Assembly (NCBI GenBank): GCA_964451305.1
Contig: CAYVHV010000007.1
Span: 20,616 to 84,615 of the forward strand
Length of the DNA stretch: 64,000 nucleotides
Reading direction: 5' to 3'
From: an uncultured Acidimicrobiales bacterium
GTDB lineage: Bacteria > Actinomycetota > Acidimicrobiia > Acidimicrobiales > SHLQ01
The position numbers and the translations under genes are program-made. A model generated the notes under the pieces. The model ran no database searches and was not told the origin of the DNA. It saw only the letters and a program-made list of their open reading frames with translations. Positions 10,857 to 56,239 of this stretch are shown here, piece after piece (within the stretch, counting starts at the first letter, position 1; the number at the start of each line of letters is the position of its first letter).

Positions 10857-11471
10857 ATGGACATTGATTTCTGGGTGGATCCTATTTGACCATGGTGTTG
10901 GGTGACGGCCCGTTGGGTCGTCGAAGAGGTAGCCCCGAAGCGCGATCTGAACATCACGTGGCAGCCGATCAGCCTGCTACTCAAGAACCAGATGGACGAG
11001 AGCGACGAGCCTTATCCTCGCTACCTCAGAACGCACCGAATGCTCCGGGTAATGGAGTCGGTGCGTGCTGCCGAGGGCGATGAGCCGATCGGCGATCTCT
11101 ACTGGGAGTACGGACGGCGAGTTCACCACGACAAGGATCGTGACTTCGATGTTTCCGAAGCACTCGCTGCGGTTGGACTTGATACGTCGCACGCGAGCGC
11201 AGCCGATGACGAGTCATGGGACGCGAAGATCCTCGAACGCCAAGCCGTTGGCATCGAACTCGCGGGCGAGGACATCGGCACACCGATCATTGCATTCGAC
11301 GACAAGAACGGCGATCGAAAGGCGTACTTCGGTCCGGTGATTACTCGAGTACCGCCCGGAGATGAAGCCGTGGAGATGTGGGACGCCCTAATGACGTTGA
11401 TGAACGTCAATGGTTTCTGGGAACTCAAGCGAACCCGAACCGAGCGGCCGGAGTTCGGCGAGCGCCCGTAG
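10857..11471 (+). CDS. DsbA-like mycothiol-type reductase of the Rv2466c family, predicted selenoprotein (UPWC instead of CPWC); TGA at 10887-10889 read as Sec
   Basis: Track ORFs 10614..10889 and 10902..11471 are in the same frame and separated only by one TGA. The joined product is MDIDFWVDPI-U-PWCWVTARWVVEEV...GTPIIAF...FWELKRTRTERPEF. This resembles Rv2466c end to end, as I recall its sequence. Confidence 0.7.
10904..10922 (+). promoter_or_regulatory. candidate SECIS hairpin for the 10887 UGA
   Basis: GACGGCCC-GTT-GGGTCGTC forms an 8-bp stem with one G-U wobble at pair 5. The apical loop is GUU (or CGUUG if the closing pair opens). The stem begins 17 nt after the U of UGA. Confidence 0.55.
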
Positions 11472-36770: not shown

Positions 36771-37408
36771 TGATATCGGACGCGCTCGAACTCGTCGACT
36801 ATCGACGCCGAGTTGCCACGCTGTATAGCGATATCCAACGCAGCGGCGTCGGGCCCGACAGCTGGCTGGTATGGCGCCGCGCCCGTACCGAGCTGCTGCT
36901 GACACACCCGCAGAGCCCGATCGTCAATCGCAACGAGTTCTCAGAGGAATCGCTCTCATACTTCGAGTACGACCCATCATGGAACGTCATCGGTACGGTC
37001 GAACCGCTCGCTGATGACGAAGAGCCAGCAAAGGTTGCTGGCGGACCGTCGACGTTCACACAGATTGGCTCGGTGCTCTTCGAGCGCAACGGTGAGAGCC
37101 ATTCACTTGCGCTCTTTTGGCTCGATGCCTACGGCGGTGGCTTGCTCGTCCCGTTTCGCGACAAGACCAATGGCACCTCGACCTACGGAGCGGGTCGGTA
37201 CATCCTCGACGGGGCGAAGTCGGCCGATCTCGGTGCGGCTGGCCAAAATGAACTCGTCCTCGACTTCAACTTCTCGTATCACCCGTCATGCATGTGGGAC
37301 CCACAGTGGCCGTGTCCACTCGCCCCGCCAACAAGCCATCTTGCCGTTGAAGTCGCTGCGGGCGAGAAAATGCCCGAGCAACTCATGGCACCGGTGGAGT
37401 CCTCGTAG
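36770..37408 (+). CDS. DUF1684 domain protein
   Basis: [33 protein letters not shown]...[21 protein letters not shown]. Confidence 0.8.
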
Positions 37409-39396: not shown

Positions 39397-39434
39397 GTTC
39401 ATGCCCGCAATGTCTCTTCGAGGAGTTCAGCACA

Positions 39435-41765
39435 ATGGATGAGCTCACGGGGCTGACGAAAAGCGAGGTTGCTGACCGCGTCAGCGCTGGCCAGACGAAC
39501 GTGTCCAGTGAGCCAGAAGGTCGCTCGTTAGCTCACATCATCGAGGCGAACGTCCTCACGCCGGTGAACGCGATCATGATCGTTCTTTTCATCCTTGTGG
39601 TGATCTCGGGCAACATCGGCGACGGCTTGTTCGTCGGTGTCGTCTTTTCGAACAGTGTCCTCGGCATTGCCCAAGAGGTGAAGGCCCGGCGCGAGCTCGC
39701 TCGGCTCCAAGTGCTGACCGAACCTGAAGCGATCGTCATTCGAGATGGGAGCCGTGAAACCGTCGACGTTGACGAGATCGTCCTCGATGACCTGATCGTG
39801 CTCAACTCCGGTTCACAACTGCCGGTCGACGGGACGGTGGTTGCGGTGACCGGGTTGCGCCTCGACGAGTCACAACTGACCGGCGAGTCGTTGCCGGTTC
39901 GCAAAGAGCTCGGCGATGACGCGCTCTCGGGCAGCTTCGTTGTTGCTGGCAGCGGCGTCATGCGGGCAACCGCGGTCGGGCTCGATAGCTTTGCCGCTGG
40001 ACTCACCAACGAAGCAAAGACATTCCGGGCCGCAGAGTCCGAGCTCCGCCGAGCGGTCAACGTGATCCTGCGATGGCTGACGGTGATCATCCCGATCAGT
40101 TCCATCCTGCTGCTCGTCGTCTTGCTCGATATCGAGGATCGTTGGCAGGACGCGCTACAAGGCACTGTCGCCGCAGCGGTTGCGATGGTGCCCGACGGTC
40201 TGGTGCTCTTGACGAGCCTCGCCTTCGTCGCAGGGTTGCTCGAACTTACCCGTCGAAACGCATTGGCATCGGAGCTGTCGACCGTCGAAGTGCTCGCCCG
40301 CGTCGACACGCTGTTCCTCGATAAGACCGGCACGATCACGACCGGCGAGATCACCTATGGAGCGACCCATGTGTCGTCGGACTGGTCAGAAGCCGACGTT
40401 CATCGCGTGTTAGCGGCGATGATCGCGAGCGACGACGATCCCAATGCCACTGCCTTGGCCCTCGCCGCCGCGGTCGGAGCGGATCCGGGATGGACGACGC
40501 GGTCGATCGAGCCCTTCTCGAGCGCCCGGAAGTGGTCGGCGATCGAATTCGCGGAACGTGGATGGTTCTATTTCGGGGCGCCTGACGTGCTGTTGTCAGA
40601 GGACGATCCAGCCAAGTCGATCGTGCGTGAGCGAAGCGCTGCAGGGAAGCGGTTGATCGCCCTCACCTCGGCTACGGCCGGGCCGAGCGGAGATGCTGCA
40701 CCCTCGGACCTGAGTACCCTGGCGATCATCGAGCTCGAAGACGAGATTCGACCCGACGCGCTAGACACGCTCCAGTACTTCGCCGACCAGGACGTGGCCA
40801 TCAAGGTGATCTCTGGCGATAACCCCGACACGGTGGCTGCGATTGCCGAGCGTGCAGGAGTGACGTTGCTCGGGCCATCGACCGATGCTCGGACCTTGAG
40901 CGACACGCGCAGCCTGATCGGAGAGTCGCTCGAAGCGGGAACCGTCTTTGGGCGGGTAGCACCACGACAAAAACAAGAGATGGTCAAGGCCATGCAAGAG
41001 CGTGGTCACGTGGTGGCGATGACCGGGGACGGAGTGAACGACGTGCTTGCCCTCAAGGACGCCGACCTTGGTATCGCAATGGGATCGGGAAGCGCTGCAA
41101 GTCGAACCGCTGCTGACCTCGTGCTCACCGACAACGCGTTCTCCACCTTGCCCGTCGTGGTGAGCGAAGGCCGAAAGGTCATCAACAACGTCGAGCGAGT
41201 GGCGAATCTGTTCGTGACAAAGGCGGTGTACGCCGTGCTGTTGACCGTGCTCGTCGGTGTTGCGGGTACGCCGTTTCCGTTCCTCCCACGCCAACTCACC
41301 CTGATCGGAACGTTCAGCATCGGGCTCCCCGGATTCTTCCTCGCGCTCGCGCCTGAGGTCGAACGAGTTCGAGCAGGATTCCTCTACCGAGTTCTGCAAT
41401 TCTCGATACCGGCCGGAATTACTGCGGGTGCGGCATCGTTTTCGGCCTACCAGTTCGCGCAGCGTGTTATGAACGTCGACCTTGGACAGGAACGCACCTT
41501 GGCCACCGTGACGCTTCTCGGGATTGGACTCGTAATTCTCCTCGTCGCCAGCCGACCGCTTCGAGTCTGGAAACTCGGACTCGTCGCCGCAATGGCCGGC
41601 GGGTATGTAGTGGTGTTTCTGGTCGCACCACTTCGAGAGTTCTTCCAGCTCGAATCGTTGAGCGCCGAACTATGGTCGATCGCAGCGATCGCCAGTACGA
41701 CGGCGAGCATCGTCATCGCGATGATCGCGTTTGTCTGCAACAAAATTGGCTCGCGTCGTAGCTAG
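39435..41765 (+). CDS. cation-translocating P-type ATPase (HAD-IC, P2/CtpE-like)
   Basis: Phosphorylation motif DKTGTITTGE, hinge TGDGVNDVLALKDADLGIAMG, and TM4 motif VPDGL. I chose the ATG at 39435 because the track start at 39285 overlaps the previous gene. Confidence 0.88.
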   Translation: MDELTGLTKSEVADRVSAGQTNVSSEPEGRSLAHIIEANVLTPVNAIMIVLFILVVISGNIGDGLFVGVVFSNSVLGIAQEVKARRELARLQVLTEPEAIVIRDGSRETVDVDEIVLDDLIVLNSGSQLPVDGTVVAVTGLRLDESQLTGESLPVRKELGDDALSGSFVVAGSGVMRATAVGLDSFAAGLTNEAKTFRAAESELRRAVNVILRWLTVIIPISSILLLVVLLDIEDRWQDALQGTVAAAVAMVPDGLVLLTSLAFVAGLLELTRRNALASELSTVEVLARVDTLFLDKTGTITTGEITYGATHVSSDWSEADVHRVLAAMIASDDDPNATALALAAAVGADPGWTTRSIEPFSSARKWSAIEFAERGWFYFGAPDVLLSEDDPAKSIVRERSAAGKRLIALTSATAGPSGDAAPSDLSTLAIIELEDEIRPDALDTLQYFADQDVAIKVISGDNPDTVAAIAERAGVTLLGPSTDARTLSDTRSLIGESLEAGTVFGRVAPRQKQEMVKAMQERGHVVAMTGDGVNDVLALKDADLGIAMGSGSAASRTAADLVLTDNAFSTLPVVVSEGRKVINNVERVANLFVTKAVYAVLLTVLVGVAGTPFPFLPRQLTLIGTFSIGLPGFFLALAPEVERVRAGFLYRVLQFSIPAGITAGAASFSAYQFAQRVMNVDLGQERTLATVTLLGIGLVILLVASRPLRVWKLGLVAAMAGGYVVVFLVAPLREFFQLESLSAELWSIAAIASTTASIVIAMIAFVCNKIGSRRS

Positions 41766-41796: not shown

Positions 41797-43308
41797 TCAC
41801 GTTCCACAGAACGTCTGGTAGCGGTTCGTGAACCCTGCTGGCGCCGGCTCGGCGTAGAGCTCCATATCGTCGCGTTCTGTGAAGGGCGACGTGGTCACGT
41901 CCAACAGGAGATGGAACGGTTCGAGGTTTCCTGACCTCGCGGCCGCAAGCGCTTCTTCGACGAGGTGATTGCGAGGAATATAGATCGGATTTACCAGGTC
42001 CATCGCCGCAGCGACCTCGTCACGGTCAGCGGTGCCGAGAACATCGAGCCATTGTTGATACCAGACATCCCAGGCCTGATCTGAGGCGAGCGAGTAGTCG
42101 GTCGCGTCTTGGCTCCGGAGCACCGAAGAGAGCGCGCGGAACGCCACCGTGTGATCCGCTCCGACCCGAGCGAGCATCTCGACGAAGCCGTCGGTGAGCG
42201 CCGCTACTTCAGCGTCGTTTGATCGCTCCGCCAGCCCGATCTTGGCCGCCATGTGTGCAACCCAATGACCTCTGAACTGCTCGGGAAACGCTTCGAGAAC
42301 CTCCGTTGCTTGCGCAACGGCCTCTTCGGGTTGCTCAGAGAACAATGGGAGAAGTGTTTCGGCGAGTCGGGCAAGATTCCACTGTCCAAGCTTGGCTTGG
42401 TTGCCAAACGCGTACCGGCCCTGACGGTCGATCGAACTAAACACCGTCGATGGATCGTACGTCTCGAGGAAGGCACATGGCCCGTAGTCGATCGTCTCTC
42501 CGGAGATGAGGACGTTGTCGGTGTTCATCACACCGTGAATGAACCCGTTGACCATCCATCGGGCGATGAGGAACGCCTGAGCGTTCGTGACCGCCTTCAG
42601 CAGCTCAAGTGCGGGAACTTCTGCATCACGTAGCTCGGGGTAGTGACGTTCGATCGAGTAGTCGACGAGCTCGCGTACAAGATCAGGGTCCTTTCGTGCG
42701 GCGTACTCGAAGGTCCCGACGCGAAGATGGCTCGCCGCAACGCGGCCGAGGACCGCTCCCGGCTCCATCTGTTCTCGGCGGACGCTCGCACCGGTCGTGA
42801 CGACTCCGAGCGCCCGAGACGTCGGTACGTCGAGAGCGTGCATCGCTTCGGCCATCAGGTACTCGCGGAGCATCGCTGACAACGTGGCGAAGCCATCGCC
42901 TCCTCGTGAATACGGTGTGCGTCCCGAACCCTTGAGGTGGAGGTCGGCCAACGTCCCGTCGCTCGATGTCAGTTCGCCGAGGAGGAGTGCCCGACCGTCG
43001 CCGAGCAGAGGGGAGTAGCCACCGAACTGATGACCGGCGTAGGCCATAGCGATCGGCTTGGCCCCGTCGGGCACGTTGGTGCCGGCGAGGAAGGCTGTGC
43101 CATCCTCGCCGTGCAACCATCCAACATCGACACCGAGGTCTTCAGCGAGCTCGTCGTTGATCACGACGGCCTCTGGAGACGGAGCATCATCTGCTTTCCA
43201 CTCGGTACCGAGCGCAGGGAAACGCGTGGCGAAGAGCGAGGAAAGCTCCGGTGCGCCGTCAGGATTCGCCGAAGCGTTCTCCTCGGCATCGATGGTGTTG
43301 GAACTCAT
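41797..43308 (-). CDS. selO: protein adenylyltransferase SelO (YdiU/UPF0061)
   Basis: YAGHQFGGYSPLLGDGRALLLGE, HLKGSGRTPYSRGGDG and GFIHGVMNTDNVLISGETIDYGP. The C-terminus ...YQTFCGT carries a Cys, and the TGA after it is a genuine stop. Confidence 0.92.
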   Translation of the reverse strand: MSSNTIDAEENASANPDGAPELSSLFATRFPALGTEWKADDAPSPEAVVINDELAEDLGVDVGWLHGEDGTAFLAGTNVPDGAKPIAMAYAGHQFGGYSPLLGDGRALLLGELTSSDGTLADLHLKGSGRTPYSRGGDGFATLSAMLREYLMAEAMHALDVPTSRALGVVTTGASVRREQMEPGAVLGRVAASHLRVGTFEYAARKDPDLVRELVDYSIERHYPELRDAEVPALELLKAVTNAQAFLIARWMVNGFIHGVMNTDNVLISGETIDYGPCAFLETYDPSTVFSSIDRQGRYAFGNQAKLGQWNLARLAETLLPLFSEQPEEAVAQATEVLEAFPEQFRGHWVAHMAAKIGLAERSNDAEVAALTDGFVEMLARVGADHTVAFRALSSVLRSQDATDYSLASDQAWDVWYQQWLDVLGTADRDEVAAAMDLVNPIYIPRNHLVEEALAAARSGNLEPFHLLLDVTTSPFTERDDMELYAEPAPAGFTNRYQTFCGT

Positions 43309-43310
43309 TG

Positions 43311-43853
43311 TTATGCGTCTGCTTTCTCGGCTGGAGCTGTCGTGGAATCGTTCGTTGTGTCACCGGTGATCTCATCGATGATCTCGATGACCTTGGTCGG
43401 ATCAGCCTGGAAACCCTGGCCGATGATCTCACGATCTGGCCCGATAAGGACGGTCCACGGGGTACCGCCGGTGCGGTAGTCGGCCATGGTCTTTGGCGGG
43501 TGGCCGCTGTCGTGCCCGAGTGCAATGTCCTCGAGACCGTGCTCCTTAACCGACTTCAGCGCAGCTTCGGCGGTGTTGGTTTCGTGTCCCTCAAAGACGG
43601 TCTGGATCGCAATGAACTCGACCAGATCTGCCTTGCCGGCCTTCTCGTAGTGCTCCTTGACCGCTGCCAATGTCGGGAAACCGTGGGAGTGACAGCCCGG
43701 GCACCACGACTGGAAGGCGTAGAGGTAGATGATCGGTGCATCGATGTCGGCGATGCGCCGCGGCAGGTCATTTCCGTCGAGCCATTCGTCGACGCGAAGC
43801 TCTGGTGCGGGTCCGCCCGTAAGTCCGTAATTCTCTGCCATGTCGTTCTCCAT
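43311..43853 (-). CDS. TlpA/AhpC-TSA-like thioredoxin-fold redoxin (CPGC)
   Basis: YLYAFQSWCPGCHSHGFP...GGTPWTVLIGPD. It ends 2 nt before the selO start. Confidence 0.8.
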   Translation of the reverse strand: MENDMAENYGLTGGPAPELRVDEWLDGNDLPRRIADIDAPIIYLYAFQSWCPGCHSHGFPTLAAVKEHYEKAGKADLVEFIAIQTVFEGHETNTAEAALKSVKEHGLEDIALGHDSGHPPKTMADYRTGGTPWTVLIGPDREIIGQGFQADPTKVIEIIDEITGDTTNDSTTAPAEKADA

Positions 43854-43910
43854 TCCGTGCCAGCGGTACCCGATTTGGTTTTGCCGCTATGTGATAGACA
43901 AGCGAGATAC

Positions 43911-44567
43911 ATGATTGTTACACCGAAGTCGGAAAAAAATTTGCCGAGCGCGGATTCCGGGATATTGGACGCAATTCGAGCGGGGGATACCGAGGCTTTT
44001 GAGGCGCTCGTGACCGAACTGACCCCAGGGCTTCGAGGACTTGCTCGAACGTATGTGAGTAACGCTCTTGCAGAAGAGGTGGTTCAAGAAACTTGGGCGG
44101 CGGTGGTTCGCTCACTCGATTCGTTCGAAGGTCGGTCCTCGTTGAGGACGTGGATCTATCGAATCTTGCTAAACAAGGTCCGTACGCTCGCCGGCCGAGA
44201 GGCTCGAATCGTGCCATTCGCTTCGCTGGGCCTCGGCGAAGATGGTGTGTCACCGTCGGTTGAGCCGGAGCGTTTCGGCGACCGGCTCCTCCAGGACGGT
44301 GATTGGGTGGTGCCGCCAACCGAGTGGAGTGATGCCCCCGCCGAAGAGCTCGAGAATGACGAGGTGCTCGACCTTGTTCGCCATGCCATCGATGAGCTGC
44401 CTGAATCCCAGCGCGAGGTCATGCAGCTGCGAGATGTCGAGCAATGGCGCGCCGATGATGTTTGCGAAGCGCTCGGTATTTCGTCGGTGAACCAACGGGT
44501 CTTGTTGCACCGGGGTCGAGCCGCTGTTCGATCAAAGTTGGAGGACTACTATGCCGTCGCCGCATGA
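43911..44567 (+). CDS. ECF-type RNA polymerase sigma-70 factor
   Basis: Region 2 reads EEVVQETWAAVVRSLDSFEGRSSLRTWIYRILLNK and region 4 reads LPESQREVMQLRDVEQWRADDVCEALGISSVNQRVLLHRGR. I chose the ATG at 43911 because the track ORF start at 43251 lies antisense to the redoxin gene. Confidence 0.88.
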   Translation: MIVTPKSEKNLPSADSGILDAIRAGDTEAFEALVTELTPGLRGLARTYVSNALAEEVVQETWAAVVRSLDSFEGRSSLRTWIYRILLNKVRTLAGREARIVPFASLGLGEDGVSPSVEPERFGDRLLQDGDWVVPPTEWSDAPAEELENDEVLDLVRHAIDELPESQREVMQLRDVEQWRADDVCEALGISSVNQRVLLHRGRAAVRSKLEDYYAVAA

Positions 44568-44859
44568 GGAACGCTCCCGTGACGCCGACTTCGTAACGAA
44601 CCCGTTGGTGCTTCGCTGCGTCGAAGTTGTTGAGCTCATCACCTTCTACCTCGATGATGCATTGGACGTCAACGATCGTCGGGCCGTCGACACCCACCTC
44701 CGTGGCTGCGAAAACTGCACCGTGTTCGTCACCCAGATCCGCCAGACGATTCAGCTAGCGGCCGCGGTCGGACAGCGCGAAGCCGTCGAGCCGCCAGCGA
44801 ATTTCGCCGAGTTGTCGGCGCTCGTGGCGCAACGAAACGACCCGTCGACGCAGACATAA
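44551..44859 (+). CDS. soluble zinc-binding (ZAS, zf-HC2) anti-sigma factor, RsrA/RshA-like
   Basis: 102 aa with no TM segment. The ligand pattern is C23-x25-H49-x3-C53-x2-C56 (...THLRGCENC...). It overlaps the end of the sigma gene by 17 nt. Confidence 0.8.
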   Translation: MPSPHEERSRDADFVTNPLVLRCVEVVELITFYLDDALDVNDRRAVDTHLRGCENCTVFVTQIRQTIQLAAAVGQREAVEPPANFAELSALVAQRNDPSTQT

Positions 44860-44913: not shown

Positions 44914-44956
44914 ACTGAGGTAGCAGCGAGGACTTTCTTCGCGAATGGGAGTGCAA

Positions 44957-45589
44957 ATGAGACCGGTAAAGATCACTGTCTATTCGGACTTTATTTGACC
45001 ATGGTGTTGGGTCGGGACCGTGCGTCTCGACAGGTTGAAGGAAAAGTACGGCGATCGCGTCGACATCGAGTGGAAAGCATTCTTGCTTCGCACTGGACCT
45101 CGTGATTGGCAGCGCGCAGACTTCTTGCACTACACCCGTTCGTGGATGCGTCCAAAGGAAGCCGAACCCGAGCTGGACTTCACCATCTGGGCGACCGATG
45201 ACCCCCAGCCGCATTCCAGCATCGAGGCTCAGGTCGCCTTCAAAGTGCTTGAAGAACTGGCGCCGGAAAATGCGAAGGCGTATCACGACCGGATCATGAA
45301 GGCGTACTTCGTGGAGAACCGCGACATCAGCAACGCAGACATCCTCACCGGCCTCGCCGTCGACGTAGGCGTCGATGCAGCGGCGTTCCAAGCAGCGATT
45401 GAAACTCGTAGCGAAGTGATGGTCGAGCGGGTATTCGAGGAATACAACAGCGCAATTTCACAGAACGTCACGGGCATCCCAACCGTGGTGTTCGAAGACC
45501 AGTTTCCAGTCGTCGGTGCTCAGCCGCTCGAAACCTATGAAGACATCGTCGAGCAGATCGAGAAGCAGCTCGAGTCGATGGCCGATTGA
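44957..45589 (+). CDS. DsbA-family (FrnE-like) thiol:disulfide oxidoreductase, predicted selenoprotein (UPWC); TGA at 44996-44998 read as Sec
   Basis: The ATG at 44957 (GGGAG 7 nt upstream) gives MRPVKITVYSDFI-U-PWCWVGTVRLDRLKEKYGDR... in frame with track ORF 45020..45589. The N-terminal beta-strand plus [CU]PWC is the canonical DsbA/FrnE start, and GIPTVVF is the cis-Pro loop. Confidence 0.7.
45011..45031 (+). promoter_or_regulatory. candidate SECIS hairpin for the 44996 UGA
   Basis: GTCGGGAC-CGTGC-GTCTCGAC forms an 8-bp stem with a G-U wobble at pair 5 and the apical loop CGUGC. The stem starts 15 nt after the U of UGA. Confidence 0.55.
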
Positions 45590-45591
45590 CC

Positions 45592-46248
45592 ATGACAACG
45601 CCGATCGAACTCAACCCAGACTTTCTCGTCAGTAGCGAAGAAGCCCTCAGCCAGATGTTTCATCCGGCCAACGACTTCGTGACCGACAAGTGTTTGGACT
45701 ACGTCCACGAACATGCGCGGGTCTTTATCGAACGCTCGCCGTTCATGCTGATCGGCTCGCAGTCAGCCGATGGGCACGCCGATGTTACGCCGCGCGGTGA
45801 CCCACCCGGGTTCGTCAAAGTGCTCGATGATGACAAGACACTCCTGATTCCCGACCGTCCTGGGAACAACCGAATCGACACGTTGCGGAACCTCGTGTCG
45901 AACCCTCGTATCGGGCTCATCTTCCTGATCCCAGGTTTCGAAGAGACCATGCGCGTCAACGGTGCAGCTCAGCTCACCCGAGATCCAGAGCTTCTCGAGA
46001 CGATGGCCGTAAAGGGCCGCGTCCCGAAGATCGCAATCGCGGTGCGCGTCGATGAGGTCTACATCCACTGCGCCAAGGCCATTCGGCGGGCAAATCTGTG
46101 GGATGAAAGCGAGCATCAGGATCGGAGCGAGTACCCGACCATGGCCAAGGTGATGCTCGATCACACCTACGGTGCTCCCGATGATCCCGAGGTGATGAAA
46201 GAGATCGACGACAACATGGATAACTTCTATCGCACGTCGTTGTACTAG
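45592..46248 (+). CDS. pyridoxamine 5'-phosphate oxidase-family FMN-binding protein
   Basis: ADVTPRGDPPGFVKVLDDKTLLIPDRPGNNRIDTLRNL...RIGLIFLIPG..ETMRVNG. An alternative TTG start at 45586 overlaps the previous stop. Confidence 0.75.
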   Translation: MTTPIELNPDFLVSSEEALSQMFHPANDFVTDKCLDYVHEHARVFIERSPFMLIGSQSADGHADVTPRGDPPGFVKVLDDDKTLLIPDRPGNNRIDTLRNLVSNPRIGLIFLIPGFEETMRVNGAAQLTRDPELLETMAVKGRVPKIAIAVRVDEVYIHCAKAIRRANLWDESEHQDRSEYPTMAKVMLDHTYGAPDDPEVMKEIDDNMDNFYRTSLY

Positions 46249-47279: not shown

Positions 47280-49412
47280 TTACGCGCCGGAGGAGCGACT
47301 GTCGGCAGGTTCGGCGGTGCTTTCTCGAAGGTCGAGAGCCTCGGTGCCAGCAATACGAACCGGCGTGTACTTGAACCCGGGGATTTTCGAGGCCGGATCG
47401 AGGTTCGCAGCGACGAGTGTGTTGCATTCCTCCCAGTGGTAGGGCATGAACAACGTATCGTGTCGCAATCCCTTCTGCGGACGCCACGGAACCCACACCG
47501 AACCCTGTCTCGACGTCACGAGGACCTTTGCGTCTCGCTCGATCTGATACGCGGCGGCGGTCGACGGATGGATCTCGACGTAGGGGCCGGGGGCGAGTCG
47601 TTGCTGACGTTCGATTCGACCCGTTTGGTTTCCAGAGAGGAACTGCGCGAGCAGACGCCCTGTCGTGAGTACGAGAGGGAATTCAGCATTGGTTTCATGG
47701 GGTAGCTGGCGGGGGACGACCGGGTGGAAGCGGGCGTTGCCATCGGGATGAGCAAAGCGTTCGGTGTAAAGCTGGGGTGTGCCCGGGTGGTCCGTCGATG
47801 GACATGGCCAGAACACACCGTCCTCATCGCGAATCCGGTCGTAAGTGATGCCGGAATAGTCGATCGGCCCTCCTTTTGAGACAGCCCGCATCTCTTCGAA
47901 AATGTCCTCTTCAGACTCGAATCGAAAACTCACAGGGCTCTCGAGGCCCTCCGCCAGGTCTGCGAGAATGTCCAGATCGTTGCGGCCCGCAATCGGCTCG
48001 ATCGCTTGGTCGATTCGAACGACCCGGCCTTCGATCGTCGTGATGGTTCCCGATTCCTCAGCGAAGGACGAACCCGGGAGGATCACGTTGGCGAAACGAG
48101 CCGATTCGCTCATGAACGGATCGATGACGACGTGGTGCTCGAGCGCCCCGAGCTGGCGACGCACCGAGGTCAGATCGGGAGATGACACGGCCATGTTCGT
48201 GCATATGGTCAGCAAGCCTCGGGTCTCGCCCGAATCGACGCCGTCGAGTATCTCGACGTACGAGGAGCCCGCTGACGGCAGTAACGCCTCATCGATTCCC
48301 CAGCGGTCAGCGACCAACGAACGATCGTCGGGCGAAAGGATAGAGCGGCCGGCAGGGAGTTGATCGCAACGCTGGCCCCATTCCCGTCCACCTTGCCCGT
48401 TTCGCTGTCCGGTCAACATATTGATTCCCGCCCCGGGGCGGCCAACGTGGCCGCACGCGAGACCGACATTGATGATCGACTGCACGTTTTGGGTTCCGTC
48501 GGTCTGCTGTTCTGGCCCGCGTCCATGCAGGAACATGCATTTCGTTGTCCCGCCGATCAACGAGGCGACCTTCTCTAGCAACCGTCGTGGAACGTCGGCG
48601 ACCAACTCCACGAACTCGGGGTCGTACTCCATCGCTGCACTGAGCGCATCGGAGAAACCAACGGTGCGGTTCTCGAGGAAGTCTCGGTCGACGAGACCTT
48701 GACGAACGATCTCGCGAAGCAGACCGTTGAACAGGACGGCGTCCGAGCCGGGCTCGAGGGCCACATGGATGTCTCCGTCTTTCACGAACCTTCCCGCCCG
48801 TGGATCGATCACGATGACGGTCCCGCCCCGTTTGCGAACATGATTGAGGAGGGTTGGAAGCGCAACGGGGAAGGCGGCCGATATGTGTGCTCCGATGACC
48901 ACGACCACCTCGGCAACTCTGAGCTCATCGAGCGGGGTCATCATCCGGTCGGCGCCGAAGGCCAACATGTTGGCCTTTCCAGCGGCTGCCATGCAGAACC
49001 GGCCGTTGTAGTCGACGTTGGGTGTCCCGAGCGCGAGCCTCGCAAACTTACCGAGCAGGTACACCTTCTCGTTCGTCAACGACCCACCGGACAAGAGCGC
49101 GTTCGCCGGCGCCCCGTGCTCGGACCGGATCTTGGCGAACCCGTCGATCGCAGCATCGAGGCCTTCGTTCCAGGACACTTCGTGAAACTCGGTTCCTCGA
49201 CGGATGAGCGGAGCCGTCAGCCGGTCTTTGTGGTGAATCTGCTCAAACGCTGAGGCGCCTTTTGAACACAAGGACCCCGTTGTGAGGGGCGAGCCTTTCC
49301 AACGGGACAGCCCGACGACCGTCCCATCGGCGACGTTCAAATCCATCCCACAGTTCAGTGAGCAATATGGGCAGTGGGTTCTCGCCGTCGAGTTCGAGCG
49401 TCCGGTGCTCAT
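47280..49412 (-). CDS. nasA: assimilatory nitrate reductase, molybdopterin catalytic subunit
   Basis: N-terminal 4Fe-4S motif HCPYCSLNCG...C and full-length MopB family similarity. It is the last gene of the nitrate/nitrite operon. Confidence 0.88.
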   Translation of the reverse strand: MSTGRSNSTARTHCPYCSLNCGMDLNVADGTVVGLSRWKGSPLTTGSLCSKGASAFEQIHHKDRLTAPLIRRGTEFHEVSWNEGLDAAIDGFAKIRSEHGAPANALLSGGSLTNEKVYLLGKFARLALGTPNVDYNGRFCMAAAGKANMLAFGADRMMTPLDELRVAEVVVVIGAHISAAFPVALPTLLNHVRKRGGTVIVIDPRAGRFVKDGDIHVALEPGSDAVLFNGLLREIVRQGLVDRDFLENRTVGFSDALSAAMEYDPEFVELVADVPRRLLEKVASLIGGTTKCMFLHGRGPEQQTDGTQNVQSIINVGLACGHVGRPGAGINMLTGQRNGQGGREWGQRCDQLPAGRSILSPDDRSLVADRWGIDEALLPSAGSSYVEILDGVDSGETRGLLTICTNMAVSSPDLTSVRRQLGALEHHVVIDPFMSESARFANVILPGSSFAEESGTITTIEGRVVRIDQAIEPIAGRNDLDILADLAEGLESPVSFRFESEEDIFEEMRAVSKGGPIDYSGITYDRIRDEDGVFWPCPSTDHPGTPQLYTERFAHPDGNARFHPVVPRQLPHETNAEFPLVLTTGRLLAQFLSGNQTGRIERQQRLAPGPYVEIHPSTAAAYQIERDAKVLVTSRQGSVWVPWRPQKGLRHDTLFMPYHWEECNTLVAANLDPASKIPGFKYTPVRIAGTEALDLRESTAEPADSRSSGA

Positions 49413-50536
49413 GTGGCACTCAGTCGATAGCCGCGACGTTTGACGGTCTGTATGCCCTTGCCAGCAACGCCGAGCCGCTTTCTGAGTCGGCCGACGGTGA
49501 CCTCGACGACGTGTTCGTCGGTCGAATTCCCCTGCCAGACCTCCGAGAGCAGGTTCTTCTTTGAGAAGACGACGCCAGGGCGGCTGGACAGAATCGAGAG
49601 CAAGCGTTTCTCACGCCGACTCAGTATCTGGGGGTCTTGTGAGCCGACCCGTAGCTCACTTCCACGTAGCACCACCCGGTGACCAGCGAGGTCGACTTCT
49701 GTCGCCGACTGGTAAAGCTGTTCGGTCAGGTGCCGGACCATCGTCCCGAGTTGGGGACGGTCCGGGAAGGTCGGTCGGCCCAAGCCGGATTCGGTGACAA
49801 CGGATGCGGTTCGTTCGCCGACGCACACGACGAGTGTCGTCCATCTCGTCGCTTCGCAGATCGCCGGGAAAACACCTTGTTCTCGAGCGCATCGCACGAA
49901 GTTCTCGACCGCTGGACGCGCGGTGAACGTGAGTGCGTCGACCTCGTGTTGTGCTACAGCGGTGACGAGGCGGACCAACGCTGTGCTATCGACTGGGGGA
50001 GTCCAGCGATAGACGGGCACCGGGATGACCGTCGCTCCGAGCGACTCTATGCGTTCGATGACGGTGCATTCGGGGTCGCCGTCGAGTTGGATCGCCACCG
50101 TCGTCCCCTGAAGGCAACGTTCGCCAAGCGCCGACACGATGTCGTCGAAGGTGTCCACTGTGGCTGATGAAATATCAAGACCAGCGGTTATGGCCGCGCC
50201 TCGTGCCTTGGCTCCTCGGGCGATGACCTCCGACCGGTCGATCGCGTCTCGTAGCCGGTCTCCTTCGAGACGCGTGTCCGCCGACGAGAACCATCCCCGT
50301 ACGCCGATGCCCGTGGTGAGCACCGTGATATCCGGCGGGGTCGCGATCAGCTGACCGGTTGCCTCGGCAGTTTCGGCTTCTGGCAGCAGGGGCAGCGTCT
50401 GGAGTGCAGGACCGTGGAGGCATGTTGCACCTCGTCCCGCGAGCATCTTGATTTGCTCGTCGCTGCGTCGATCCGCAGTGACTCCGATTGTGAAACCATC
50501 GAGGTCGCCATGCACACCTTCAGTTTGGGAGGTCAA
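49409..50536 (-). CDS. nnaR: uroporphyrinogen-III synthase (HemD)-like domain fused to an OmpR-type winged-helix DNA-binding domain (NnaR/Rv0260c-type regulator)
   Basis: The N-terminal ~250 aa are HemD-like. The C-terminus LSRREKRLLSILSSRPGVVFSKKNLLSEVW...VEVTVGRLRKRL...IQTVKRRGYRL is a trans_reg_C wHTH. It overlaps nasA by 4 nt. Confidence 0.8.
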   Translation of the reverse strand: MTSQTEGVHGDLDGFTIGVTADRRSDEQIKMLAGRGATCLHGPALQTLPLLPEAETAEATGQLIATPPDITVLTTGIGVRGWFSSADTRLEGDRLRDAIDRSEVIARGAKARGAAITAGLDISSATVDTFDDIVSALGERCLQGTTVAIQLDGDPECTVIERIESLGATVIPVPVYRWTPPVDSTALVRLVTAVAQHEVDALTFTARPAVENFVRCAREQGVFPAICEATRWTTLVVCVGERTASVVTESGLGRPTFPDRPQLGTMVRHLTEQLYQSATEVDLAGHRVVLRGSELRVGSQDPQILSRREKRLLSILSSRPGVVFSKKNLLSEVWQGNSTDEHVVEVTVGRLRKRLGVAGKGIQTVKRRGYRLSAT

Positions 50537-50540
50537 TGTT

Positions 50541-50954
50541 TCAGACGTGTTTCTCGCCCGTGACGTTCCGTCGCAACGAGACCACTTCGCCGACGGTGCG
50601 GGCCTCGAAAATTTCGAGCGAGAGGTCGTCGTTGGTGAGGCAACGACCGGTGATCAGGCTGAAACGGTCTTTTAGCAAAGGGGAGATCACGATGGGTTCG
50701 TCCGCGGTCGATCCGATGAGACCTCGTGCGATCGTGGGCGTTCCTGTGCGCGGGTCGATATGTCCTACGGCGTGCAACGACTCGGTGTCGCCGACGCTGA
50801 AGCGAAAGAGGGCGACGGGCCGCCCTTCGACCAGCACGGCGATACCGCGCCCGTGTTCGAGCTGGTCAACGTTGCACACCTCATGCCACCGTCGGTCGCC
50901 GTCCGGCTCGAGGTCGATTTGTACGGTTTCGGAAATGACAGCCTTTGGGTTCAT
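50541..50954 (-). CDS. nirD: nitrite reductase [NAD(P)H] small subunit
   Basis: Rieske-like fold without the cluster ligands (RPVALFR...HAVGHIDP...ISPLLKDRFSL). It overlaps nirB by 4 nt. Confidence 0.85.
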   Translation of the reverse strand: MNPKAVISETVQIDLEPDGDRRWHEVCNVDQLEHGRGIAVLVEGRPVALFRFSVGDTESLHAVGHIDPRTGTPTIARGLIGSTADEPIVISPLLKDRFSLITGRCLTNDDLSLEIFEARTVGEVVSLRRNVTGEKHV

Positions 50955-53443
50955 GATGCGGGCACCCGCTGTCCACGTTCACGAATCCAGACCGGCGATG
51001 AGTTTGCGTCCGGCGCATTTACGAACTCGACAAAGTGCTCGAGCTTGTCCGGGTTGTTGAGCGTTGCGGTCCACTCGCACTCATAGGTTTCGACGTGGGT
51101 GGCCATCGCGGCCTCCAACTCCTCACAAATACCGAGAGTGTCATCGACGATGACTGATCGCAGATAGTCGACACCACCTTCGAGCCGCTCGAACCACGTC
51201 GAGGTTCGTTCGAGCTTGTCCGCCGTACGGATGTAGAACATCAAGAATCGATCGATCAGTGTGATCAGCTCGTCATCGCTGAGATCGATAGCGAAGAGAT
51301 CGCCGTGGCGGGGGACACGACCACCGTTGCCGCACAGGTACAGATTCCAACCGGTCTCTGTCGCGACGATCCCAAAGTCTTTACTTTGGGCTTCCGCGCA
51401 TTCTCGCGTGCATCCAGACACACCCGATTTGAGCTTGTGCGGTGCGCGCAAGCCTCGATATCTCCGTTCGATTTGAATGGCCATACCCACCGCGTCTTGG
51501 ACGCCGTAGCGACACCACGTTGAGCCAACGCAAGACTTCACGGTGCGAAGCGCCTTCCCATAGGCTTGGCCAGATTCGAGACCAGCGTCGATGACCCGCT
51601 GCCAGATGTCTGGGAGTTCGTGCAGCTGCGCTCCGAAGAGATCGATGCGTTGTGCGCCAGTGATCTTTGCGTAGAGGTCATAGTCTCGGCCGACCTCGCC
51701 GAGAGCGATGAGCTGTTGCGGCGTGATCTCTCCGCCCGGTACCCGTGGGACGACCGAGTAGGTGCCGTTCTTTTGCATGTTTGCAAGGGAACGATCGTTG
51801 GTGTCCTGGAGCGGGGCCTGATCCTGGCTCAGAACGTACCCGTTGCTCTGCGACGCCAGAATCGATGCGACGGTCGGACGGCAGATCTCACACCCCAGTC
51901 CAGAGCCGTACGTCGATACGATCTCGGACCACGTGGTCAAACCATCGAGGCGGACCAGATCGAACAGTTCTTGTCGGCTGTACGCGAAGTGTTCACAGAG
52001 CGATGTGTCGATGCTGACGCCGATGTCGACGAGCGTCTCGTTCATCAGCGATGTCATCCCCGGGATGCAGCCACCGCAACCGGTTCCGCAGTTCGTCGAC
52101 TCCTTCAGGCGTGCAATGCTGTGGTCGCCATCTTGGACCGCGTCCTTGAGCTCGCCACGGGTCACGTTGTTGCAGCTGCACAAGATTGCCGAGTCTGGCA
52201 GTGCGAGGGAGGGCTGTTCTGTAGAGGATCCCGGAGCGATGAGCGAGCCGAGCGCCGAGGTCTCCATCGCCCCGGTCGACATGGCGTGGAAGAGGTCGTA
52301 GTTGGAGGCGTCTCCTACCAGCACGCCGCCGGTTACGACGCCGTTGTCGACCGACACGCTCCGGTAGATCTTCTCCGAAGGGTCGGAGAAGGTCACTGCG
52401 TTCGTTCCCGTGTGATGTCCAAAGCTTGCGACCTCGACACCGAAGAGCTTCAGCTTCGTCGAGAGGTCTGCACCGGTGAACGTTCTATCTCCACCAGTGA
52501 GCTGAGATGCGAGTGCGGATGCCATTGCGTAGCCAGGTCCCACCAACCCATATGTCATGTCGCCGTGAGCGGCGACCTCGCCGATGGCGAAGATGTGTGG
52601 ATCTGAGGTCTGCAGCATGTCATCGACGACGACACCGCCGCGCGTACCGATCGTCAGGCCTGCGTTGCGGGCAAGCTCGTCTCGAGGTCGGATGCCAGCG
52701 GAAAAGACGACGATGTCGGTATCGACGACACCACCCGAACCGAGCAGACTGGAAACATCATCTTCGCCGTTGCCCGAGCCTGCGATCTCCGAGGTCTGGT
52801 AGCCGAGGTGGCAGGTGATGTCGAGATCGTCGACCCAGCGTTTCAGGGTCGCGGATCCGGCTTCGTCGAGTTGTTGTGGCATCAACCGGTCGGACATCTC
52901 GACCACATGCGTGTCCAGCCCGAGGTTCTTGAGTGCGTTCGCTGCTTCGAGGCCGAGGAGTCCTCCACCGATCACCACGCCCGTCGTCTTTCCTTCGGCC
53001 CAATTTTGGATTTGCTCGAGATCTTCCAGCGTGCGGTAGACGAAGCACCCCGGGCGATCGTGGCCAGGAATTGGAGGCACGAAGGGGAAGGAACCGGTTG
53101 CGAGCACGAGCGTGTCGTACGCCAGAACATCGCCGTTCTCGAGCGAGATGGCCTGTTCCACGGTGTCGATGTTCGAGACCAGCGAGCCAAATCGAAACGT
53201 GACGCCGGCTGCGCTCTGAGCGTCGACGTCACCGAGCAAGAGGTCGCTCGTCGACGCTCCATCGAACCAGCTCGAAAGGGCCACACGGTCATATGCCGGC
53301 GTTGGTTCGTCACCAATGACGGTCACGCTGTATGTGTCGAGTCCTCCGTTCGCAATGAGGTCGTCGACAAATCGTTGACCGACCATGCCGTTGCCGACAA
53401 CGATGAGACGCTGCTTGCCGGGTGAATTTGTGAGAGTGCTCAT
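50951..53443 (-). CDS. nirB: nitrite reductase [NAD(P)H] large subunit (siroheme/4Fe-4S)
   Basis: N-terminal FAD motif LIVVGNGMVG, BFD-like [2Fe-2S] motif CSCNNVT...CGTGCGGC and siroheme-binding region VSGCTRECAEAQ.KDFG; 830 aa. Confidence 0.93.
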   Translation of the reverse strand: MSTLTNSPGKQRLIVVGNGMVGQRFVDDLIANGGLDTYSVTVIGDEPTPAYDRVALSSWFDGASTSDLLLGDVDAQSAAGVTFRFGSLVSNIDTVEQAISLENGDVLAYDTLVLATGSFPFVPPIPGHDRPGCFVYRTLEDLEQIQNWAEGKTTGVVIGGGLLGLEAANALKNLGLDTHVVEMSDRLMPQQLDEAGSATLKRWVDDLDITCHLGYQTSEIAGSGNGEDDVSSLLGSGGVVDTDIVVFSAGIRPRDELARNAGLTIGTRGGVVVDDMLQTSDPHIFAIGEVAAHGDMTYGLVGPGYAMASALASQLTGGDRTFTGADLSTKLKLFGVEVASFGHHTGTNAVTFSDPSEKIYRSVSVDNGVVTGGVLVGDASNYDLFHAMSTGAMETSALGSLIAPGSSTEQPSLALPDSAILCSCNNVTRGELKDAVQDGDHSIARLKESTNCGTGCGGCIPGMTSLMNETLVDIGVSIDTSLCEHFAYSRQELFDLVRLDGLTTWSEIVSTYGSGLGCEICRPTVASILASQSNGYVLSQDQAPLQDTNDRSLANMQKNGTYSVVPRVPGGEITPQQLIALGEVGRDYDLYAKITGAQRIDLFGAQLHELPDIWQRVIDAGLESGQAYGKALRTVKSCVGSTWCRYGVQDAVGMAIQIERRYRGLRAPHKLKSGVSGCTRECAEAQSKDFGIVATETGWNLYLCGNGGRVPRHGDLFAIDLSDDELITLIDRFLMFYIRTADKLERTSTWFERLEGGVDYLRSVIVDDTLGICEELEAAMATHVETYECEWTATLNNPDKLEHFVEFVNAPDANSSPVWIRERGQRVPAS

Positions 53444-56177: not shown

Positions 56178-56239
56178 GGGTATTGTCCTCTCGGTTCAGG
56201 TACGTAGTAGGTGTGTTGGAAAGGTGGGTCGGGGACGGG

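What the first reader, a model, noticed from the sequence alone, without database searches (positions are those of the whole stretch)
44957..45589. Second UPWC gene: FrnE-type DsbA oxidoreductase with UGA at the first active-site Cys
- **Read-through product:** starting at ATG 44957, with a GGGAG ribosome-binding site, the frame reads MRPVKITVYSDFI-TGA-PWCWVGTVRLDRLKEKYGDR.... It runs straight into track ORF 45020..45589.
- **Family match:** 'x-I-x-V-Y-S-D-F-I-[C]-P-W-C' is the canonical start of FrnE/DsbA-family proteins.
- **Shared nucleotides with the first gene:** the 18 nt beginning one base before the UGA (TTGACCATGGTGTTGGGT) are identical to those in the 10887 gene. Both encode U-P-W-C-W-V.
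- **Hairpin:** an 8-bp hairpin with loop CGUGC (45011-45031) follows 15 nt after the UGA.

This is an independent second instance of the same recoding at the same catalytic position in a different DsbA subfamily.
Basis: partly seen in the sequence, partly recalled or inferred. Interest (0 to 1): 0.82.

Follow-up and report, generated by a model that had tools for sequence, protein, structure and literature searches.

The report
Selenocysteine DsbA/FrnE-like oxidoreductase gene
This is a real but ordinary selenoprotein gene: a cytoplasmic DsbA/FrnE-type thiol oxidoreductase with a UGA-encoded selenocysteine in its active site, from a family first described in ocean metagenomes in 2005 and routinely mis-annotated as a truncated protein.

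Summary
ATG 44957 opens a 210-codon DSBA-domain gene (PF01323; closest solved structure is Deinococcus FrnE). It has one in-frame TGA (44996-44998) where Cys homologues carry the first Cys of CPWC.

- **Conservation of the TGA:** 57 orthologous genome loci, nearly all Acidimicrobiales/Acidimicrobiia MAGs, carry TGA at this codon. The next 23 relatives, mostly Myxococcota, carry TGC/TGT.
- **Translation through the TGA:** the ten codons upstream vary mainly at third positions.
- **Hairpin:** the 8-bp hairpin at 45011-45031 is 91.5% paired in TGA forms and 39% in Cys forms. It shows compensatory changes, an invariant G-U in the loop, and constrained synonymous sites in TGA forms only.
- **Not an artefact:** six independent assemblies carry the same TGA, and TGA is a normal stop for 22 of 56 window genes.

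It is not new. The gene is an orthologue (39% identity, gapless, same hairpin) of the Sargasso Sea "DsbA-like" (COG2761, UxxC) selenoprotein AACY01178397 published in 2005, a family still catalogued in 2026.

No selA, selB, selC or selD lies in the window, so the decoding machinery is untested.

The sister gene at 10857-11471 (Rv2466c-like, UPWC) is also a genuine Sec/Cys family and looks less well documented.

The parts
44947..44951 (+). Shine-Dalgarno-like GGGAG, 5 nt upstream of the start codon
   Evidence: Read directly from the sequence.
44957..45589 (+). Full coding sequence of the selenoprotein: 210 codons including Sec14, DSBA domain, FrnE-like, no signal peptide, ending at TGA 45587-45589
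   Evidence: Translation. Pfam PF01323 at E=2e-26, covering residues 6-197. PDB FrnE 5CNW at E=7e-17, covering residues 4-201. All 57 TGA orthologues have an in-frame start 6-24 codons upstream of the TGA with no intervening stop.
44996..44998 (+). In-frame TGA read as selenocysteine (residue 14), replacing the N-terminal nucleophilic Cys of the CxxC motif
   Evidence: Aligned to Cys in full-length homologues. TGA in 57 of 80 related genome loci and TGC/TGT in 23. The same TGA is present in six independent assemblies.
44996..45007 (+). Redox motif U-P-W-C (Sec14...Cys17). Cys17 is the only cysteine in the protein.
   Evidence: P, W and C are 95-100% conserved among the Sec forms.
45011..45031 (+). 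SECIS-type hairpin. The stem is 45011-45018 paired with 45024-45031 (8 bp, one G-U). The apical loop CGUGC is 45019-45023, starting 20 nt after the UGA.
   Evidence: Single-sequence fold. Across 56 distinct TGA sequences, 91.5% of cells are paired, against 30-45% when the partner is slid; 16 cells have changes on both sides, and 0 of 500 shuffles reach that value. Loop G and U are invariant. Cys forms are only 39% paired at the same columns, and synonymous sites are constrained in Sec forms only: GGG in 37 of 43 Gly codons and CGT in 41 of 56 Arg codons, against 16% each for these codons in a sample of window genes.
45020..45022 (+). GTG (Val22) that gene callers wrongly take as the start codon, giving the truncated 189-aa product held in databases
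   Evidence: All 38 close database homologues begin at or after this point, most of them at MRLD.
45479..45481 (+). Conserved proline (Pro175 in T-G-I-P-T), corresponding to the cis-Pro loop that faces the CxxC in thioredoxin-fold proteins
   Evidence: P175 is invariant in alignment A1. Position computed. The cis-Pro role is inferred from general knowledge of the fold.
45592..46248 (+). Adjacent PNPOx-family (FMN-binding split-barrel) gene, starting 3 nt after the stop. Possibly co-transcribed and a possible partner.
   Evidence: Pfam PF01243. The adjacency is kept in the closest relatives: downstream in L001-L003 and upstream in the UEWC paralogues L004/L005/L010. It is not kept in more distant loci.
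10857..11471 (+). Sister selenoprotein gene in the same window: Rv2466c-like, with TGA 10887-10889 at the first Cys of CPWC and hairpin 10904-10922. It shows that this genome decodes UGA as Sec at more than one gene.
   Evidence: Pfam PF22234 at E=3e-42. PDB Rv2466c at E=1e-41. 32 metagenome contigs carry TGA and 37 carry Cys. The hairpin is 98% paired in Sec forms and 54% in Cys forms, with compensatory changes.

Best explanation
The gene 44957-45589 encodes a cytoplasmic, FrnE-type member of the DsbA superfamily. The N-terminal, nucleophilic cysteine of its CPWC redox motif is replaced by selenocysteine, giving U14-P-W-C17.

During translation the UGA at 44996 is not read as stop. The mRNA hairpin 12 nt downstream (45011-45031, apical loop CGUGC) acts as a bacterial SECIS element. 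It recruits SelB·GTP·Sec-tRNA(Sec) to the ribosome so that Sec is inserted.

The mature 210-residue protein cycles between a selenolate/thiol state and a Sec14-Cys17 selenenylsulfide, and catalyses thiol-disulfide exchange (reduction or isomerisation of disulfides or mixed disulfides) in the cytoplasm.

**Shown here:**
- the reading frame is continuous through the UGA;
- the UGA pairs with Cys in homologues;
- the UGA is conserved across a whole order;
- the sequence upstream of the UGA evolves as coding sequence;
- a conserved, covarying hairpin is specific to the UGA forms.

**Inferred:**
- SelB-dependent insertion of Sec;
- cytoplasmic location, from the absence of a signal peptide;
- the chemistry and the substrates.
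For: - **Domain and alignment:** the PF01323 DSBA match covers residues 6-197 and begins at profile position 2, so it spans the UGA. The best solved structure is Deinococcus FrnE, whose SDIACPWCYIG aligns to SDFI[U]PWCWVG.
- **Sec/Cys pairing:** the closest 38 database proteins are N-truncated at or after the hairpin (at the GTG in most), while more distant ones are full length with CPWC. At DNA level 57 loci have TGA and 23 have TGC/TGT at the same codon.
- **Translation through the site:** in the ten codons before the TGA, variation is concentrated at third positions and the amino acids are conserved. Asp-3 is 100% conserved and Ser-4 is 95%.
- **Hairpin:** it is 91.5% paired against 30-45% for slid controls. 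Pairs 22:30 (AU/GC/UA) and 21:31 (GC/CG) covary, and the loop G-U is invariant. It is 39% paired in Cys forms, and rare GGG and CGT codons are selected only in Sec forms.
- **Not a reassigned code:** TGA ends 22 of 56 window genes, including this one.
- **Not an error:** the TGA is identical in six assemblies from different samples.
- **Second case in the same window:** a second gene shows the same signature.
- **Published orthologue:** Sargasso Sea AACY01178397, labelled DsbA-like, UxxC, COG2761. It has the same motif and hairpin and aligns at 39% identity, gapless, E=5e-58.
- **Machinery in the class:** Sec machinery is documented in class Acidimicrobiia (Actinomarina, bioRxiv 10.64898/2026.04.03.716425).
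Against: - No tRNA-Sec, selA, selB or selD is present in the 64-kb window or in about 700 kb of related loci. The decoding machinery of this genome is therefore unverified.
- No Rfam family matches. Rfam has little coverage of bacterial SECIS elements.
- The single-sequence fold is not more stable than shuffles (z = -0.24).
- Pair 20:32 is a C·U mismatch in 13 of 56 sequences.
- There is no experimental evidence of selenium incorporation for any member of this family (review PMC13188914: functions "largely uncharacterized").
Confidence: 0.93

Rival explanations
1. UGA 44996 is a real stop. The functional product starts at GTG 45020 and is a 189-residue DsbA-fold protein without a CxxC motif, as annotated in every database. 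The 13 upstream codons are then a leftover or a short leader peptide.
For: Gene callers give this model for all close homologues. The GTG is conserved, because it encodes the invariant Val of V-R-L.
Against: - The upstream 10-13 codons are conserved as protein, with third-position variation, across 57 genomes down to 40% overall identity.
- They supply beta-strand 1 and the catalytic motif that the Pfam and FrnE alignments require.
- The truncated form would lack the first strand of the thioredoxin fold.
- A hairpin specific to TGA forms has no role in this model.
Confidence: 0.02
2. The UGA is read through, but not as selenocysteine. It might be read by near-cognate Trp or Cys tRNA, with the hairpin only stimulating the read-through and giving a Cys/Trp-PWC protein.
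For: Sec machinery was not found in the window. Sequence alone cannot identify the inserted residue.
Against: - The position is the catalytic Cys of a CxxC redox motif, the classic Sec/Cys exchange site.
- The hairpin has the position and the small G-U-containing apical loop of bacterial SECIS elements (criteria in PMC1088965).
- The family is catalogued as a selenoprotein.
- Relatives in the same class carry selA, selB, selC and selD.
- Inefficient read-through to Cys would be pointless when TGC is one mutation away, yet TGA is kept in 57 genomes.
Confidence: 0.04
3. The TGA is a sequencing or assembly error, or the gene is a recent pseudogene.
For: None beyond the bare presence of an in-frame stop.
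Against: The same TGA is present in six independent assemblies. It is also present in 57 other species-level genomes, with purifying selection on both sides of it.
Confidence: 0.01

Closest known systems
"DsbA-like protein" selenoprotein family (form 1; COG2761/PF01323; UxxC). Sources: Zhang, Fomenko & Gladyshev 2005, Sargasso Sea (PMC1088965); Zhang et al. 2006 (PMC1794560); Peng et al. 2016 (PMC5029168; 41/45 entries in its selenoprotein table); 2026 review (PMC13188914).
   Same: - Same domain, and the same UxxC motif with Sec as the first residue.
- Same placement of the stem-loop immediately after the UGA.
- The published member AACY01178397 (MDSPISIVVWSDFLuPWCYVGTVRLEDV...) is 39% identical over 205 residues without gaps.
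- That member carries the same hairpin sequence, GTCGGGAC-AGTTC-GTCTTGAG.
   Different: Nothing of kind. This is another orthologue, from an Acidimicrobiales genome of 61% G+C. What this analysis adds is that the Sec form is fixed across at least 50 Acidimicrobiales/Acidimicrobiia species-level genomes, with a U-E-W-C paralogue in some of them.
Deinococcus radiodurans FrnE (PDB 5CNW/5CP1), a cytoplasmic DsbA-fold disulfide oxidoreductase/isomerase
   Same: It is the best solved-structure match (E=7e-17, residues 4-201). The CPWC motif is in the same place, there is no signal peptide, and the DSBA helical insertion is present.
   Different: FrnE has Cys, not Sec. The FrnE chain is 260 residues and extends about 40 residues beyond the aligned region. 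From my own knowledge, that tail carries a second CX4C motif. The window protein ends at residue 210 and has no cysteine other than Cys17.
Escherichia coli fdhF SECIS / SelB-dependent UGA recoding (the bacterial paradigm)
   Same: A stem-loop lies inside the coding sequence directly 3' of the UGA. It has a small apical loop with G-U, and the loop starts about 20 nt after the UGA.
   Different: The stem sequence is different, and this copy has no bulged U, although the Pseudomonadales orthologue L065 appears to have one. Binding to SelB has not been tested here.
Mycobacterium tuberculosis Rv2466c (mycothiol-dependent reductase, PDB 4ZIL/5XUR). This is the family of the sister gene at 10857-11471.
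   Same: Both are cytoplasmic DsbA-fold proteins with CPWC. The sister gene aligns end to end at E=1e-41 and has Sec at the same catalytic position.
   Different: The gene under review is not in this family. The two window proteins share only a 16-residue N-terminal similarity.

Membership tests
DsbA-like selenoprotein family (form 1, UxxC) | DSBA-like thioredoxin domain (PF01323 / COG2761) | tested here: met
   PF01323 at E=2e-26, 93.4 bits against a cut-off of 25.6, residues 6-197.
DsbA-like selenoprotein family (form 1, UxxC) | In-frame TGA aligned with the first Cys of CxxC in at least two Cys-containing homologues | tested here: met
   23 genome loci have TGC/TGT at the aligned codon. Full-length CPWC proteins P0039-P0052 align at the same position, as does FrnE.
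DsbA-like selenoprotein family (form 1, UxxC) | TGA conserved in at least two different sequences (the criterion of PMC1088965) | tested here: met
   57 loci, giving 56 distinct 45-nt sequences including the window.
DsbA-like selenoprotein family (form 1, UxxC) | Bacterial SECIS-like stem-loop immediately downstream of the UGA, with a small apical loop containing G | tested here: met
   An 8-bp stem at 45011-45031 with loop CGUGC. It is 91.5% paired with covariation, and the loop G and U are invariant. It is absent from Cys forms.
DsbA-like selenoprotein family (form 1, UxxC) | Homology to a published member | tested here: met
   39% identity, no gaps, E=5e-58 to AACY01178397.
DsbA-like selenoprotein family (form 1, UxxC) | [quoted passage not shown] | not testable with these tools
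   None is present in the 64-kb window or in the fetched loci. The machinery is documented in another order of the same class.
DsbA-like selenoprotein family (form 1, UxxC) | Selenium actually incorporated at the UGA | not testable with these tools
   This needs 75Se labelling or mass spectrometry.
FrnE (Deinococcus type) | Cytoplasmic DsbA fold with an N-terminal CPWC motif | tested here: met
   Alignment to 5CNW, with Sec in place of the first Cys. There is no N-terminal signal sequence; strand 1 starts at residue 4.
FrnE (Deinococcus type) | C-terminal tail with a second Cys pair (CX4C; known from memory) | tested here: not met
   The protein ends at residue 210 and has only Sec14 and Cys17. 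The FrnE chain extends about 40 residues beyond the aligned part.
Periplasmic DsbA oxidase | Signal peptide and a CPHC-type motif | tested here: not met
   There is no signal peptide and the motif is UPWC.

The most novel reading that the evidence does not exclude
Acidimicrobiales genomes may have moved a whole set of cytoplasmic DsbA-fold CPWC enzymes to selenocysteine. The set comprises this FrnE-like protein, a U-E-W-C paralogue linked to a PNPOx gene, and the Rv2466c-like reductase at 10857-11471.

I could not find the Rv2466c-like Sec form or the UEWC form named in the selenoprotein catalogues available to me. This lineage might therefore hold an undescribed selenium-based cytoplasmic thiol-redox system, possibly linked to mycothiol.
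Probability: 0.25. Interest if true: 0.45.

Novelty: new member of a known kind. Interest (0 to 1): 0.2.

Why it matters
It matters mainly for annotation.

- **Mis-annotation:** every close homologue in a 5.8-billion-protein database is called from an internal GTG or a later start. Each therefore lacks its catalytic motif and first beta-strand. Proteomes of Acidimicrobiales under-report selenoproteins as a result.
- **Distribution:** the Sec form is fixed across an abundant marine and soil actinobacterial order, and one 64-kb window holds two unrelated Sec-DsbA genes.
- **What it does not do:** it opens no new mechanism, because UxxC DsbA-like selenoproteins with this SECIS were published in 2005.

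Tried and rejected
- **Rfam:** a gathering-threshold search of the whole window and a permissive search of 44940-45100 found no SECIS or other relevant family.
- **Single-sequence folding statistics:** not significant. Only the comparative test is informative.
- **Sec machinery:**
  - ARAGORN on the window and on 80 loci.
  - Motif scans for SelD (GxGC/UK), SelA (SGDKLLGG) and SelB (GHVDHGK).
  - Pfam on about 30 window proteins.
  - Nothing was found. Walking the contig in 10-kb steps was judged not worth the look-ups.
- **Conserved operon with the upstream genes:** the ECF sigma factor, the zf-HC2 anti-sigma factor and the thioredoxin-like gene are not conserved neighbours outside this species. 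I did not build a regulatory story on them.
- **SelO homologue at 41797-43308 as a possible third selenoprotein:** rejected. It ends ...TFCGT-TGA, so a Cys sits third from the end, which I recall is the position of Sec in eukaryotic SelO. The nine codons after the TGA show no coding signal.
- **Window-wide scan for other in-frame TGA genes with coding signal on both sides:** no further candidate had a Cys or redox context.
- **18-nt identity as a sign of gene conversion or a shared signal:** rejected. It is explained by the shared peptide.
- **NCBIfam:** no specific model matches. There is only a sub-threshold hit to a thioredoxin-like selenolipoprotein family.

Full report
**1. What is in the sequence**

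- GGGAG lies at 44947-44951 and ATG at 44957.
- The frame is MRPVKITVYSDFI-TGA-PWCWVGTVRLDRL..., and it runs to a terminal TGA at 45587-45589.
- The mechanical ORF list starts only at GTG 45020.
- The 18-mer TTGACCATGGTGTTGGGT occurs at 10886 and 44995 and nowhere else; shuffles give none.
- An 8-bp hairpin, GUCGGGAC-CGUGC-GUCUCGAC, occupies 45011-45031. It begins 12 nt after the A of UGA.
- On its own the hairpin is not more stable than shuffled sequence (z = -0.24).

**2. What the protein is**

- With Cys written in for the UGA, the 210-residue product matches the Pfam DSBA domain PF01323. The match has E = 2e-26, covers residues 6-197 and starts at profile position 2, so it spans the UGA.
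- The best solved structure is Deinococcus radiodurans FrnE (5CNW/5CP1, E = 7e-17). Its SDIACPWCYIG aligns with SDFI[U]PWCWVG.
- There is no signal peptide. Sec14 and Cys17 are the only Sec or Cys residues.
- Pro175, in T-G-I-P-T, is invariant.

**3. Is the UGA conserved, and does it pair with Cys?**

- A search of 5.8 billion proteins returned 82 homologues. The 38 closest (50-99% identity) are 175-192 residues long and all start at or after the hairpin, most at MRLD. From 42% identity downward the proteins are full length and carry SDYLCPWC.
- At DNA level, a scan of one genome per species returned 80 loci.
- 57 loci have TGA at the aligned codon. Of these, 54 read U-P-W-C and three (L004, L005, L010) read U-E-W-C.
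- 23 loci have TGC or TGT.
- The TGA loci are almost all Acidimicrobiales/Acidimicrobiia MAGs, including MedAcidi-G3, Microthrix-labelled bins and closed chromosomes. There are single cases labelled Rubrobacter, delta-proteobacterium and Pseudomonadales, plus a few probably mis-binned short contigs.
- The Cys loci are mostly Myxococcota.

**4. Is the part upstream of the UGA translated?**

- Across 57 distinct sequences, variation in the ten codons before the TGA is concentrated at third positions. Entropy is 1.0-2.0 bits at position 3 in nine of the ten codons, and mostly below 1 bit at positions 1 and 2.
- The amino acids are conserved: Asp-3 100%, Ser-4 95%, Thr-7 86%.
- Every locus has an in-frame start 6-24 codons upstream with no stop in between.
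- This contradicts a start at GTG 45020.

**5. Is the hairpin real?**

- On a gapless alignment of 56 distinct TGA sequences, the eight proposed pairs are formed in 91.5% of cells. When the 3' partner is slid by 1-3 columns the figure is 30-45%.
- Sixteen cells carry changes on both sides, and 0 of 500 column shuffles reach that value. Pair 22:30 is AU in 34, GC in 10, GU in 7 and UA in 1. Pair 21:31 is GC in 48 and CG in 3.
- The loop G25, U26 and C28 are invariant.
- The control that matters is the Cys homologues. They encode a similar peptide (xVRLxxL) but pair at only 39% of the same cells.
- The Cys forms also show free third-position variation (1.2-1.9 bits) where the Sec forms show 0.6-1.1 bits.
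- Sec forms use GGG for 37 of 43 Gly codons and CGT for 41 of 56 Arg codons in the stem. Each of these codons makes up 16% of its family in a sample of window genes.
- The weak point is pair 20:32, a C·U mismatch in 13 of 56 sequences.

**6. Trivial explanations excluded**

- TGA terminates 22 of 56 probable genes in the window, including this one, so the code is standard.
- Six assemblies from different samples carry the identical TGA, with 0-1 mismatches over the gene.

**7. The sister gene**

- The gene at 10857-11471 is Rv2466c-like. It matches PF22234 at E = 3e-42 and PDB 4ZIL/5XUR at E = 1e-41, with FWFDPLCPWCWITSRW aligned to FWVDPI[U]PWCWVTARW.
- It shares only a 16-residue similarity with the FrnE-like protein.
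- Many database homologues are again 189-residue truncations mixed with full-length Cys forms.
- In a metagenome scan, 32 contigs have TGA and 37 have Cys.
- Its own, different hairpin (GACGGCCC-GUU-GGGUCGUC, 10904-10922) is 98% paired in Sec forms and 54% in Cys forms. Compensatory changes occur at three pairs.
- Two unrelated genes with the same signature in one window are indirect evidence that this organism decodes Sec.
- The 18-nt identity between the two genes follows from the shared peptide. Fifteen bases are fixed by U-P-W-C-W-V, and the three free sites vary among orthologues.

**8. Machinery**

- No tRNA-Sec, selA, selB or selD lies in the window or in the fetched loci.
- A 2026 preprint reports selC, selA, selD and a divergent selB in all 84 complete Actinomarina genomes, which belong to the same class.

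**9. Comparison with what is known**

- The Sargasso Sea study of 2005 defined a "DsbA-like protein" selenoprotein family: nine sequences, COG2761, motif UxxC.
- Its supplement gives AACY01178397 as MDSPISIVVWSDFLuPWCYVGTVRLEDV..., with the DNA TGACCATGGTGTTACGTCGGGACAGTTCGTCTTGAG. That is the same hairpin, and the sequence served as the paper's example SECIS for the family.
- It is 39% identical to the window protein over 205 residues without a gap (E = 5e-58).
- Later work counts the family again: 4 genes in 2006, 41/45 entries in 2016, and "DsbA-like protein form 1, PF01323, UxxC" in a 2026 review.
- The criteria those authors used are all met here: TGA/Cys pairing with at least two Cys homologues, TGA conserved in at least two sequences, and a stem-loop with a small G-containing apical loop directly after the TGA.
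- The window gene is therefore a new member of a known selenoprotein family, not a new kind.
- Relative to Deinococcus FrnE it lacks the C-terminal extension. From memory, that extension carries a second Cys pair.

**10. Mechanism**

- Shown: an uninterrupted, selected reading frame through a UGA at the catalytic Cys position, with a UGA-specific conserved hairpin.
- Inferred from the established bacterial pathway (SelA, SelB, SelC, SelD; SECIS within the coding sequence): SelB binds the hairpin loop and delivers Sec-tRNA(Sec) to the UGA.
- Inferred from the fold: Sec14 is the attacking nucleophile, and it forms a selenenylsulfide with Cys17 during thiol-disulfide exchange in the cytoplasm.
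- The adjacent PNPOx-family gene keeps its adjacency in the closest relatives only. It is a weak candidate partner.
- The upstream ECF sigma and zf-HC2 anti-sigma pair and the nearby thioredoxin-like genes are not conserved neighbours.

**11. Verdict**

- Novelty is low, because the family and its SECIS were published in 2005.
- The remaining value lies in three points. The gene is systematically mis-annotated. The Sec form is fixed across the order. The Rv2466c-like and U-E-W-C forms were not named in the catalogues I could read.

Noticed in passing
window 10857-11471 (+); TGA 10887-10889; hairpin 10904-10922: An Rv2466c-like (PF22234) DsbA-fold gene with UGA at the first Cys of CPWC. 32 metagenome contigs share the TGA and 37 have Cys. 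Its hairpin is 98% paired in TGA forms and 54% in Cys forms, with compensatory changes. I found no paper that links Rv2466c with selenocysteine. It is absent from the 2005 Sargasso list and not named in the 2026 review, so this subfamily may be under-described.
   Followed up: yes
L004:1654, L005:5040, L010:5040 (Acidimicrobiales MAG contigs): A paralogous clade of the FrnE-like selenoprotein has U-E-W-C instead of U-P-W-C, with the same hairpin and a PNPOx-family gene directly upstream. Single MAGs hold two Sec paralogues (CAZBTI01: L006 and L010; CAZTDG01: L001 and L029).
   Followed up: partly
L058:5040, L065:5040, L053:1211: TGA forms also occur outside Acidimicrobiia, in bins labelled delta-proteobacterium, Pseudomonadales and Rubrobacter. 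They sit among Cys-form relatives and have differently sequenced hairpins that keep the CGUGC/GUGC loop. L065 seems to have a bulged U, as in E. coli fdhF. This suggests repeated Cys/Sec switches or transfer.
   Followed up: partly
window 45020-45589 and database proteins P0001-P0038: All close homologues in the 5.8-billion-protein collection are called from the internal GTG (MRLD...) or later. They therefore lack strand 1 and the catalytic motif. NCBI names the equally truncated Rv2466c-like proteins 'disulfide bond formation protein DsbA'.
   Followed up: yes
window 41797-43308 (-): A SelO (protein adenylyltransferase, PF02696) homologue ends ...TFCGT followed by TGA. A Cys sits third from the end, which I recall is the position of Sec in eukaryotic SelO, and the nine codons after the TGA show no coding signal. 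This is a Cys form, not a third selenoprotein.
   Followed up: yes
window 43311-44859: Directly upstream of the selenoprotein gene lie an ECF sigma factor (43902-44567) and an overlapping zf-HC2 anti-sigma factor with HxxxCxxC (44551-44859). A divergent 180-aa ORF with a WCPGC motif and no Pfam match (43311-43853, minus strand) is also there. The layout looks like a thiol-stress module, but the linkage is not conserved in other species' loci.
   Followed up: partly
window about 37408-39394 (+) and 39285-41765 (+): A Thioredox_DsbH (PF03190) gene, called in the sister contigs L081-L085, and an E1-E2 P-type ATPase lie nearby. E1-E2 ATPases are listed as a selenoprotein family in Peng et al. 2016. 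I did not check this copy for an in-frame UGA extension.
   Followed up: no
window 47280-57694 (-): A nitrate/nitrite assimilation cluster. It comprises a molybdopterin oxidoreductase with Cys (not Sec) at the ...GRFCMAAAG... site, a HemD-OmpR fusion, a Rieske_2 (NirD-like) protein, an 830-aa NirB-like reductase and ABC transporter genes with an NMT1_2 binding protein.
   Followed up: no
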